Assembly: GCA_020137815.1 (NCBI GenBank)
Contig: CM035352.1
Span: 5,456,001 to 5,520,000, forward strand
Length of the DNA stretch: 64,000 nucleotides
Direction of reading: 5' to 3'
Source of the DNA: Hormiphora californensis
Lineage: Eukaryota; Animalia; Ctenophora
Shown here piece after piece: positions 17,401 through 20,400 of the stretch; the first letter of the stretch is position 1, and every line of letters begins with the position of its first letter. A program made the position numbers and the translations under genes. Below the pieces are notes generated by a model. It searched no databases and was not told the origin of the DNA. It saw only the letters and a program-made list of their open reading frames with translations.

Positions 17401-20400
17401 TATTACCTGGAACCTTGCTAAAGATAGAGAGATATGTCATACCTGGATCCCTTATTGTCTCACCTGGAACCGGGCATCTTCCTCAGGTGTGGTAGTGTCA
17501 GGTGTATAATAGTTGACTGTGTACCCCTCTAGTGTCAACATTTCACTAGGTGTAGCCTGCCTCTCTCTGTAGCTACACAGACAGAATGTAACATGTCCTA
17601 CTTGAACTAGAACCAGGTAACGTTGCTTCCACTTTTGCCAGTGGGATGTACCACTAATGTACAGGTACCTGGGAGGTACTAGTGAGGGATGTACCACTAA
17701 TGTACAGGTACCTGGGAGGTACTAGTGAGGGATGTACCACTAATGTACAGGTACCTGGGAGGTACTAGTGAGGGATGTACCACTAATGTACAGGTACCTG
17801 GGAGGTACTAGTGAGGGATGTACCACTAATGTACAGGTACCTGGGAGGTACTGGTGAGACGTACCACTAATGTACAGGTACCTGGGAGGTACTAGTGAGG
17901 GATGTACCACTAATGTACAGGTACCTGGGAGGTACTAGTGAGGGATGTACCACTAATGTACAGGTACCTGGGAGGTACTAGTGAGGGATGTACCACTAAT
18001 GTACAGGTACCTGGGAGGTACTAGTGAGGAACGTACCACTAATGTACAGGTACCTGGGAGGTACTAGTGAGGGATGTACCACTAATGTACAGGTACCTGG
18101 GAGGTACTAGTGAGGGATGTACCACTAATGTACAGGTACCTGGGAGGTACTAGTGAGGGATGTACCACTAATGTACAGGTACCTGGGAGGTACTAGTGAG
18201 GGATGTACCACTAATGTACAGGTACCTGGCGAGATAAGACCTCACTCATATATATCGCTACAGGATTTACTCTTTCCAACTCCCCGAATATTTTTAGAAT
18301 GGTTCCCAAAATAAAAAAACGTACCCGCCTAGTTTCATGTTCTCGGGTTTGTCCATTTTCACACAAGTTTTGATTTGAAGGCAGTATGACTTGTTAGGTA
18401 GCTCCACTGCCCCCACTCCCAGCTCCACCTCTGACTCCATATCAGTCCATTGTGGCCTATCTGACAGGGTCTCGGGCTTGGGCTTGAAGAAATTCTGTGA
18501 GGAATAAGGATTATGTAACCGACAATACCTCTTTTCTTGCGGGGCGCGGGGAGGGAGGGTCGAACAAGGCAACTCTTTTCTTGCCCATCCTTGTCCTAGC
18601 GTGTGGAGGGGGAGGAGGTACATAGATCCATAGATGTCAACACAACTCAAACCCTGGGTATAACACCTACCTTGGCGATTGGTCGTCCCTCAAATAGTAG
18701 CGGGTTGTGTGTCTCCACGTGAAGCCTGACCCTCACAGAGGGGAGGGGAGCTTTAGTGAGGAACTCAGCCTTATCGGTCCATGATGCGTTATTTTGTGGC
18801 ACTAGGTTAGTTGTGAGAACTTTGTTGGTCTGTCCTTCCACATCCATTAGGCAGAAACACTTTCGTTCAGGGGCTACACCTTTCAGTCCAGCCATACCCC
18901 TGGGGGAGTGGGGAGGTAAAAAAGGGGTAGATGGGGAGGAACGGCGTGGTTTTGGTAAATAGTCTAAATTAGTAACAATTAAAACTTTGAATTGCTCGTG
19001 CTGCATGTTTGAATTGTGTCTAAACAAGCCCAAAGTTACCTAACTTCCATGACTTCTACTTCGATTTTGAAATTCAGTACAAAGTCGTGTTTACAAGGCT
19101 GACTCTTTCCAACCTTCTCCAGGGCATCTGTTATCATCATCTGGTTGACATCTGCTGGAATAATGGGAGAGGGTGTTACTATTAGTGGAATAGGGAGGGG
19201 GTGTTATTGCAGGGGAATTGTAGGGGAATCAGGGAGCAGAGGTTGTTGTTTCTCTAGATAGGGAAAAAGAAAAGGCCCTATTTGATAACAGCTTCACAAC
19301 ATCCGGGATGTCAACATGAAACCTACCCTTCATGGGGTTGTTGTGTTGTCAACATGAAACCTACCCTTCATGGGGTTGTTGTGATGTCAATATGAAACCT
19401 ACCCTTCATGGGATGTCAATATGAAACCTACCCTTCATGGGATGTCAATATGAAACCTACCCTTCATGGGATGTCAATATGAAACCTACCCTTCATGGGG
19501 TTGTTGTGTTGTCAACATGAAACCTACCCTTCATGGGGTTGTTGTGATGTCAATATGAAACCTACCCTTCATGGGGTTGTTGTGTTGTCAACATGAAACC
19601 TACCCTTCATGGGGTTGTTGTGTTGTCAACATGAAACCTACCCTTCATGGGGTTGTTGTGTTGTCAACATGGCACCTACCCTTCATGGGGTTGTTGTGAT
19701 GTCAACATGAAACCTACCCTTCATGGGGTTGTTGTGTTGTCAACATGAAACCTACCCTTCATGGGGTTGTTGTGATGTCAACATGAAACCTACCCTTCAT
19801 GGGGTTATTGTGATGTCAACATGAAACCTACCCTTCATGGGGTTGTTGTGATGTCAATATGAAACCTACCCTTCATGGGGTTGTTGTGATGTCAATATGA
19901 AACCTACCCTTCATGGGGTTGTTGTGTTGTCAACATGAAACCTACCCTTCATGGGGTTGTTGTGTTGTCAACATGAAACCTACCCTTCATGGGGTTGTTG
20001 TGTTGTCAACATGAAACCTACCCTTCATGGGGTTGTTGTGTTGTCAACATGAAACCTACCCTTCATGGGGTTGTTGTGATGTCAATATGAAACCTACCCT
20101 TCATGGGATGTCAATATGAAACCTACCCTTCATGGGGTTGTTGTGTTGTCAACATGAAACCTACCCTTCATGGGGTTGTTGTGATGTCAATATGAAACCT
20201 ACCCTTCATGGGATGTCAATATGAAACCTACCCTTCATGGGATGTCAATATGAAACCTACCCTTCATGGGATGTCAATATGAAACCTACCCTTCATGGGG
20301 TTGTTGTGTTGTCAATATGAAACCTACCCTTCATGGGGTTATTGTGATGTCAACATGAAACCTACCCTTCATGGGGTTGTTGTGTTGTCAACATGAAACC

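What the first reader, a model, noticed from the sequence alone, without database searches (positions are those of the whole stretch)
17643..18324. Array of 13 GT...AG-bounded 43-nt units: candidate recursive-splicing ladder or intron growth by exon duplication
A normal-sized 99-nt intron (donor GG|GTACGT at 18324, acceptor ctcgccAG at 18226) is followed by 13 units. Each starts GTACCT, copies the first ~26 nt of the PH-domain exon, and ends cctcccAG. Only the last AG (17669) yields an intact PH domain; earlier ones give stops or frameshifts. Splicing to any upstream AG regenerates GG|GTACCT, one base from the real donor, so re-splicing could remove the rest. Otherwise the spliceosome must skip 13 near-identical acceptors. 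The layout fits the AG|GT tandem-duplication model of intron gain; the mechanism is inference.
Basis: partly seen in the sequence, partly recalled or inferred. Interest (0 to 1): 0.8.

Follow-up and report, generated by a model that had tools for sequence, protein, structure and literature searches.

The report
Splice-acceptor "mirage" repeat in comb-jelly CAPS

Summary
The array is real: 13 units (11 identical 43-mers, one with two substitutions, one 41 nt) at 18225-17669, minus strand, in intron 10 of a ctenophore CAPS/CADPS gene. All 13 upstream AGs give a premature stop. One polyA contig weakly shows exon 10 joined to the last copy. The unit is 26 nt of exon start plus 17 nt likely derived from the old intron end, so it straddles the acceptor: the "mirage" minisatellite of amphioxus (PMC3087553), mirror of human F7 IVS7. 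The same gene has donor arrays (68, 8, 5 copies) and acceptor doublets without GT, where recursion cannot work; in each the exon-adjacent copy fits the homologues. Against a ladder: a 656-nt intron; a regenerated donor lacking both +5G and -2A (0 of 24 local donors do), weaker than the donor 43 nt downstream; the same donor regenerated at the correct junction. No exon is added, so it is likely intron lengthening, not gain. Likely mechanism: direct splicing to the exon-adjacent AG, with leaks destroyed by decay. Recursion is not excluded (no nascent RNA). The scan found this class before in annelids, molluscs, urchin, shark and elsewhere in this genome.

The parts
18325..18494 (-). CAPS exon 10 (end of C2 region, start of PH domain), ends in phase 2
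   Evidence: tblastn to ctenophore CAPS; 19-exon model open for 993 aa
18226..18324 (-). Unique 99-nt 5' part of intron 10: real donor (CGG|GTACGT) and the first, diverged AG, likely the ancestral acceptor
   Evidence: acceptor score 3.8 against 9.6 for unit AGs; its last 11 nt match the unit end at 9 of 11
17669..18225 (-). 13 tandem units of 43 nt (one 41 nt): 26 nt of exon-11 start plus 17 nt ending in a C-rich tract and CAG; the last unit supplies the working acceptor (AG at 17670-17669)
17464..17668 (-). CAPS exon 11, PH domain, 205 nt; donor CAG|GTGAGA at 17463
   Evidence: (PF00169, E 8e-4, below the gathering score); polyA contig 17527-17669
19305..21812 (-). Sibling donor-straddling array, 38-nt unit, 68 donor copies, intron 7
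   Evidence: 67 of 67 later donors give a stop
17332..17470 (-). Sibling donor copies (5) after exon 11, 36-nt period
   Evidence: 4 of 4 later donors give a stop
16690..16737 (-). Acceptor doublet before exon 12 (AG|TT, 33 nt apart, upstream copy in frame)
15094..15466 (-). Sibling donor-straddling array, 46-48-nt unit, 8 copies, intron 15
   Evidence: 7 of 7 later donors give a stop
14933..14998 (-). Acceptor doublet before exon 16 (AG|CT, 46 nt apart; upstream copy gives a stop; no donor regenerated)

Best explanation
The array is a minisatellite that copies the 3' splice site of CAPS intron 10 (a 'mirage'), and the intron is likely removed in one step from the donor at 18324 to the last AG because that AG is the one next to the complete exon. 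Origin (inferred): a segment of about 42 nt, the last 11 nt of a 99-nt intron plus the first 31 nt of exon 11, was duplicated in tandem, picked up a few changes at the new junction, and was amplified and homogenised by slippage or unequal crossing-over. The edge copies stayed diverged and the working acceptor passed to the last copy, lengthening the intron to 656 nt without changing the protein. Site choice (inferred): exon definition. U1 on the exon-11 donor and exon sequence beyond the copied 26 nt favour the nearest upstream AG (205-nt exon, against 248-762 nt for the others). Leak to any upstream AG meets a stop codon (shown) and is likely removed by nonsense-mediated decay. No function of the array is needed.
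For: Shown: gene identity and a 993-aa open frame, 73% identical to two ctenophore CAPS proteins, only with the last AG; 13 of 13 upstream AGs give stops. The unit end aligns to the first acceptor (9 of 11; score 8 against at most 5 for 17 other CAPS acceptors) and the unit start to 35 columns of the exon start. One polyA contig (X2) matches 17527-17669 with no difference and runs on in 8 letters that fit exon 10's end at 6 of 8, against 1 of 8 for the intron and at most 3 of 8 for the other 18 exon ends. The same exon-adjacent rule fits the sibling copies: 67 of 67, 7 of 7 and 4 of 4 later donors and the exon-16 upstream acceptor give stops. Exons start with GT at 6 of 23 local acceptors, so AG|GT in a straddling array is unremarkable. 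Literature: amphioxus mirages including an acceptor type (BflGb6), no disturbance of splicing, edge copies excluded from homogenisation (PMC3087553; PMC3902484); F7 IVS7 uses only the exon-adjacent donor (PMC1557585).
Against: The RNA support is one contig with 8 loose letters, two of them mismatched, below the tool's 31-letter bridging standard, from a mixed-community run. It shows the end product, which all splicing routes share. Nothing in the sequence makes the last AG intrinsically better: same score as the internal AGs and similar predicted accessibility, so exon definition is inferred by exclusion. Branch-point-to-first-AG scanning does not by itself explain the choice, since every unit has a CTCAC at -15. 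The F7 authors prefer oriented scanning to plain exon definition. Decay in ctenophores was not tested.
Confidence: 0.76

Rival explanations
1. 5'-to-3' recursive ladder: exon 10 is spliced to the first or an internal AG, the regenerated GG|GTACCT donor is then used, once or repeatedly, until the last AG is reached.
For: Every copy regenerates a GT donor; its score (5.35) lies within the range of real local donors (6 of 24 score lower) and its U1 pairing energy is close to the real donor's (-6.4 against -6.7). Units are near the ~50-nt size of fly RS-exons (PMC8605326).
Against: The intron is 656 nt, while fly recursive sites lie in very long introns with 9-15-kb segments (PMC6110457). 0 of 24 local donors lack both +5G and -2A as the regenerated one does. 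It is weaker than the in-place donor 43 nt downstream (7.72) and the exon-11 donor (9.43); in flies the stronger donor wins, which here would include a unit instead of skipping it. The correct junction regenerates the same donor for 26 nt and must not be re-spliced; the EJC suppresses such donors in flies (PMC8184009, abstract). The first AG is the weakest of those scored (3.8). Sibling doublets with AG|CT and AG|TT cannot recurse.
Confidence: 0.07
2. Array-first (nested) removal: an in-place CAG|GTACCT at 18225 or an internal unit acts as donor to the last AG, cutting out units and restoring a short normal intron that is then spliced.
For: CAG|GTACCT scores 7.72, mid-range among real donors; both local donors with +5C have AG at -2/-1 as it does. 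This is the geometry of the AGGT duplication model (PMC3443670).
Against: No RNA evidence. It is not needed for sibling copies. The last copy has the same CAG|GTACCT, whose use as a donor would destroy exon 11's acceptor. The junction is predicted to be base-paired in all 14 copies.
Confidence: 0.08
3. The array is a leaky, length-variable dial: a sizeable share of transcripts use upstream AGs or skip exon 11 and are degraded, so copy number tunes CAPS level (as the ABCA7 VNTR affects splicing).
For: 13 AGs score as well as the true one; all misuse gives stops; ABCA7 shows 2% single-unit retention and length-dependent exon skipping (PMC5954066).
Against: No allele or expression data here; amphioxus mirages are reported not to yield aberrant mRNA.
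Confidence: 0.06
4. Assembly artefact: the array is over-expanded or false.
For: No DNA run could be laid on it; the 30-nt unit pattern has 0 matches in metagenome contigs; the window looks error-prone near 11750-12400.
Against: The 17-nt junction part is unique to the array, two units carry distinct variants, and both edge copies are diverged, which an assembler does not invent.
Confidence: 0.03

Closest known systems
Amphioxus 'mirage' minisatellites (BflGb6, BflGb9; Adh3, troponin C, PGBD5) - PMC3087553 (passages of section 16, legends), PMC3902484 (one passage); the Adh3 paper known only through these citations
   Same: Tandem units spanning an intron-exon border; BflGb6 is the acceptor type (intron 3' end plus exon 5' start); unit size within the Adh3 range of 10-72 bp; internal units homogenised, edge copy diverged; normal mRNA still made; donors and acceptors both affected; already proposed as raw material for intron gain.
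   Different: Ctenophore, not chordate; 13 copies against 3-6 in BflGb6; each unit is bounded GT...AG because the exon starts with GT; allelic and somatic length variation not tested here.
Human F7 IVS7 37-bp VNTR (PMC1557585; abstract and Discussion read)
   Same: Identical splice sites repeated into the intron; only the exon-adjacent one is used; the CAPS intron 7, 11 and 15 donor arrays have this layout.
   Different: Donor side, where the finding is acceptor side; mechanism shown by mutagenesis there, inferred here.
Human ABCA7 intron-18 25-bp VNTR (PMC5954066; passages)
   Same: Splice-site-containing VNTR; misuse of a neighbouring unit gives frameshift and decay.
   Different: Donor side; measured length effects on exon skipping; none known here.
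Drosophila ratchet points / RS-exons (PMC6110457, PMC8605326; passages)
   Same: AG|GT junctions that regenerate a donor; a second donor about 50 nt downstream.
   Different: Very long introns, conserved single sites with strong regenerated donors and observed intermediates; here a short intron, a young repeat, a weak regenerated donor and no intermediate seen.
Intron gain by tandem duplication of an exonic AGGT segment (Rogers model; PMC3443670, passages)
   Same: Tandem duplication puts AG|GT at both ends of the duplicated stretch.
   Different: The model duplicates exon sequence and creates a new intron between two exon parts; here the segment straddles an existing acceptor and no exon is added.

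Membership tests
Mirage minisatellite (boundary-spanning tandem repeat) | Head-to-tail tandem units | tested here: met
   13 units, 97% matches
Mirage minisatellite (boundary-spanning tandem repeat) | Unit spans an intron-exon border and repeats the splice signal | tested here: met
   26 nt exon start plus C-rich tract and CAG; unit end aligns to the first acceptor
Mirage minisatellite (boundary-spanning tandem repeat) | Normal mRNA still produced from the exon-adjacent copy | tested here: inconclusive
   Homology requires it; one polyA contig agrees but with only 8 letters beyond the junction
Mirage minisatellite (boundary-spanning tandem repeat) | Internal homogenisation with diverged edge copies | tested here: met
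   11 of 13 units identical; first acceptor and the exon continuation differ from the unit
Mirage minisatellite (boundary-spanning tandem repeat) | Length variation between alleles or cells | not testable with these tools
   No genome held, no related locus found, no raw DNA reads offered
Recursive splicing (ratchet points) | Acceptor immediately followed by a regenerable donor (AG|GT) | tested here: met
   14 of 14 copies
Recursive splicing (ratchet points) | Long host intron (tens of kb in flies) | tested here: not met
   656 nt against PMC6110457
Recursive splicing (ratchet points) | Regenerated donor stronger than the competing downstream donor | tested here: not met
   5.35 against 7.72 and 9.43 on a rough 24-site local matrix; U1 energies -6.4, -7.1, -11.1
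Recursive splicing (ratchet points) | Splicing intermediates or internal lariats observed | not testable with these tools
   Only assembled contigs offered; none of 3 runs covers 18184-18500
Recursive splicing (ratchet points) | Site conserved between species | not testable with these tools
   No relative's intron could be fetched
Intron gain by AGGT tandem duplication | Duplicated segment is exonic and yields a new intron separating two exon parts | tested here: not met
   Exon 10 joins exon 11 without any added residue relative to homologues; the array abuts an existing intron
Intron gain by AGGT tandem duplication | Intron absent in relatives | not testable with these tools
   Only relatives' proteins, not their gene structures, were available

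The most novel reading that the evidence does not exclude
Because this exon begins with GT, this mirage is self-correcting: each decoy acceptor doubles as a donor, so the array is cut out in two or more steps (nested array-first removal, or re-splicing after a wrong first cut) inside a 656-nt intron. That would be recursive or nested splicing born from a young minisatellite in a ctenophore, and a living intermediate of the duplication model of intron gain, one point change or micro-exon away from a real new intron.
Probability: 0.12. Interest if true: 0.65.

Novelty: new member of a known kind. Interest (0 to 1): 0.2.

Why it matters
Modestly. It extends mirage minisatellites to ctenophores (no paper in the library held all of ctenophore, minisatellite, splice site and intron). 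One gene with donor arrays of 68, 8 and 5 copies and acceptor copies of 14, 2 and 2, where the exon-adjacent copy fits the homologues each time, is a natural test bed for whether an animal with mostly 70-300-nt introns picks splice sites across the exon rather than across the intron. If multi-step removal were shown, it would link mirages, recursive splicing and intron birth, which would be of real interest.

Tried and rejected
Whole genome: none held. Related loci: 185 pattern hits in metagenome contigs, none confirmed; the unit pattern had 0 matches there; so no orthologous intron was seen. RNA: 3 runs listed, all contigs, shares 0.07, 0.07, 0.00. None of 3 runs covered 18184-18500; a hole proves nothing. 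X1 gave two short pieces (15482-15531, 16243-16277), uninformative. X3 has 10 differences in 68 letters, so it is a diverged relative; its contig joins an exon-7-like end to exon 8 but says nothing on this genome's array. RNA structure as the selector: the region folds better than shuffles (z -3.3, 0 of 20; expected for a repeat of palindromic units), but CAG is paired in all 14 copies (unpaired probability 0.02-0.15 global at 37 C, 0.02-0.05 with local span), so structure does not single out the last AG: rejected. Enrichment of duplications at splice sites: 5 of 11 local-duplication clusters in 24600-11900 contain an exon edge (one GA microsatellite row dropped; the exon-1 acceptor among the 5 is unverified) against 2.8 expected; P 0.11 for 5, 0.29 for 4, 0.03 for 6 if the cluster 16 nt from donor 11 is counted. 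The scan missed the short exon-12 doublet and the degenerate intron-14 copies. Enrichment is not shown; ordinary local duplication suffices. Isoform ladder: rejected, 13 of 13 give stops. Minimum-intron argument against 43-nt steps: the smallest of 18 CAPS introns is 70 nt, but unverified GT-AG stretches of 40 and 47 nt occur elsewhere in the window, so I do not rely on it. The classical duplicated-splice-site experiments (Reed and Maniatis 1986) are recalled; one search did not find them, and PMC1557585 reports conflicting results for such constructs.

Full report
What is there. The window is animal DNA. The exon after the array encodes a PH domain whose best hits are an unnamed protein (78%) and a Mnemiopsis leidyi protein (76%), then vertebrate CADPS2 (57-59%); 27 of 30 candidates passed. 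tblastn places a CAPS/CADPS gene on the minus strand from about 24400 to 2400. A 19-exon model over 24411-13802 has canonical GT-AG ends, is open for 993 residues, and is 73% identical to both ctenophore-type proteins; it runs without a gap across the exon 10/11 junction. The organism is therefore likely a ctenophore (inference from homology).

Intron 10 runs 18324-17669 (656 nt): 99 unique nt ending in an AG, then 13 units (11 identical 43-mers, one with two substitutions, one of 41 nt), then exon 11. Splicing to any of the 13 upstream AGs meets a stop, also in the 4 cases that keep the frame.

Anatomy of the unit. The first 26 nt equal the exon start. The other 17 nt occur nowhere else in the window but can be derived from both flanks: the first part resembles exon nt 27-31 with a 2-nt insertion, and the last 10 nt match the 11 nt before the first AG at 9 of 11 (score 8, against at most 5 for 17 other CAPS acceptors). 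So the founding duplication likely straddled the old acceptor, and the internal copies were then homogenised while the edges were not. This is lengthening of an existing intron. The AGGT intron-gain model needs an exonic duplication that creates a new intron between two exon parts (PMC3443670, passages); no exon is added here. Whether relatives have the intron could not be tested.

It is not alone. The same gene has 68 copies of the exon-7 donor, 5 of the exon-11 donor, 8 of the exon-15 donor, two of the exon-12 acceptor, two of the exon-16 acceptor, and two of a putative 5' acceptor at 24464/24411. All 78 of 78 later donors and the upstream exon-16 acceptor give stops; the upstream exon-12 acceptor is in frame but adds 11 residues that the homologues lack. 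The copy next to the complete exon is thus the one that fits in every case. The acceptor doublets are followed by CT and TT, so they are skipped without any possible recursion. Duplications are not shown to be enriched at splice sites (5 of 11 clusters against 2.8 expected, P 0.11), and 6 of 23 local exons begin with GT, so an AG|GT array is a likely chance member of the class.

RNA. Three runs were offered, all as contigs. One polyA run (X2) has one contig identical to 17527-17669, including the unique part of exon 11, followed by 8 letters that fit exon 10's end at 6 of 8 (the first six in a row), against 1 of 8 for the intron and at most 3 of 8 for the other 18 exon ends. This is weak support that mature mRNA uses the last AG. 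It cannot tell one step from several.

How the last AG is chosen. A rough matrix from 24 donors and 23 acceptors (19 and 18 from CAPS, 5 and 5 picked by eye from a neighbouring Rer1 gene) gives the last AG the same score as the internal ones (9.6) and the first AG a low one (3.8; only 3 of 23 real sites are lower). Folding leaves all 14 junctions about equally paired. What sets the last AG apart is only what follows it: the rest of the exon and its donor 205 nt away. Exon definition is therefore the most likely selector (inference), with decay of the stop-containing leak (inference from the general pathway).

Against the ladder. The one-base difference is the +5 G. All 6 of 6 local donors without +5G have AG at -2/-1; the regenerated CGG|GTACCT has neither (0 of 24). 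It scores 5.35, below the real donor (8.15), the in-place CAG|GTACCT 43 nt further on (7.72) and the exon-11 donor (9.43). In flies the stronger of the two donors wins and weak ratchet donors give inclusion of the cryptic exon (PMC8605326, passages); here that would put a unit into the mRNA. The correct junction regenerates the same donor with 26 identical nt, so a ladder needs that donor active at 13 junctions and silent at the 14th; the exon junction complex suppresses regenerated donors in flies (PMC8184009, abstract). Fly recursive sites sit in introns over about 40 kb, with 9-15-kb segments (PMC6110457, passages). In favour of leaving it open: 6 of 24 real donors score lower, the U1 pairing energies are close (-6.4 against -6.7), the matrix is small, and the fly rules need not hold in ctenophores. 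If a multi-step route exists, array-first removal from the better in-place donor is at least as plausible as the 5'-to-3' ladder.

What is known. Tandem repeats spanning intron-exon borders are described in amphioxus as 'mirages', including the acceptor type (BflGb6), with normal splicing, length instability, diverged edge copies and an explicit intron-gain model (PMC3087553, passages and legends; PMC3902484, one passage; supplements not read; the original Adh3 paper not seen). I reached this name through earlier scan notes and then read the papers. Human F7 IVS7 (PMC1557585, abstract and Discussion) and ABCA7 (PMC5954066, passages) are donor-side cases. The Hormiphora genome paper reports 13% tandem repeats, nested genes and trans-splicing; the 12 of 28 passages shown do not mention boundary repeats (PMC8527503). 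Searches for a ctenophore report and for a general invertebrate survey found none in this library, which lacks most subscription journals. Earlier notes of this scan describe the same class in annelids, molluscs, an urchin, a shark and another piece of this genome; they are unchecked leads, not support.

Verdict. A real, tidy example of a known repeat class in a new phylum. Direct splicing to the exon-adjacent AG 0.76; multi-step removal about 0.15 in all; interest 0.2.

Noticed in passing
window 16730 and 16697 (minus): Two copies of the exon-12 acceptor 33 nt apart; the upstream one is in frame and open (+11 residues in the PH domain), so it is the one boundary copy in this gene that could give a viable isoform.
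   Followed up: partly
window 32691-33468 (minus), Rer1 gene: 43 copies of an 18-nt C-rich unit holding a branch-point-like CTAAC end about 10 nt before the acceptor: a repeated branch-point/pyrimidine tract without the AG.
   Followed up: no
window 24389-24506 (minus): Duplicated putative acceptor (CACTAAC...CAG|GTATGC, two copies) just 5' of the likely CAPS start codon; could be a cis acceptor or a spliced-leader trans-splice site; unverified.
   Followed up: partly
window 15715-15790 (minus): Degenerate 16-nt copies of the exon-14 donor in intron 14.
   Followed up: partly
window 62850-62939 and 62290-62376 (plus): Donor-like boundary copies in an unidentified plus-strand gene.
   Followed up: no
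window 62088-62134 and 57859-57898 (plus): GT-AG stretches of 47 and 40 nt that may be very short introns; unverified.
   Followed up: no
window 2571-11680 (minus): A long CAPS intron appears to hold an opposite-strand gene with LDLa-like repeats and GPCR-like segments (about 4000-6900) and a LINE-like fragment (about 7600-9900), read by eye; nested genes are reported as common in Hormiphora.
   Followed up: no
window 11979-13777 and 11750-12400: 17-nt satellite of about 105 copies starting some 25 nt after donor 19, not straddling it; it and a nearby CAPS exon degrade into what looks like assembly error beside a GA microsatellite.
   Followed up: no
window 16870-17290 (minus): Intron 11 holds an inverted-repeat, MITE-like element rich in short direct repeats; a separate short interspersed element recurs near 14500-14610, 22240-22360 and 24650-24760.
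   Followed up: no
window 32000-61200: Other genes by Pfam: Rer1, GCN5L1/BLOS1, ARID1/BAF250, RNase PH (Rrp41-like), a GT2 glycosyltransferase, GrpE, HIT.
   Followed up: partly
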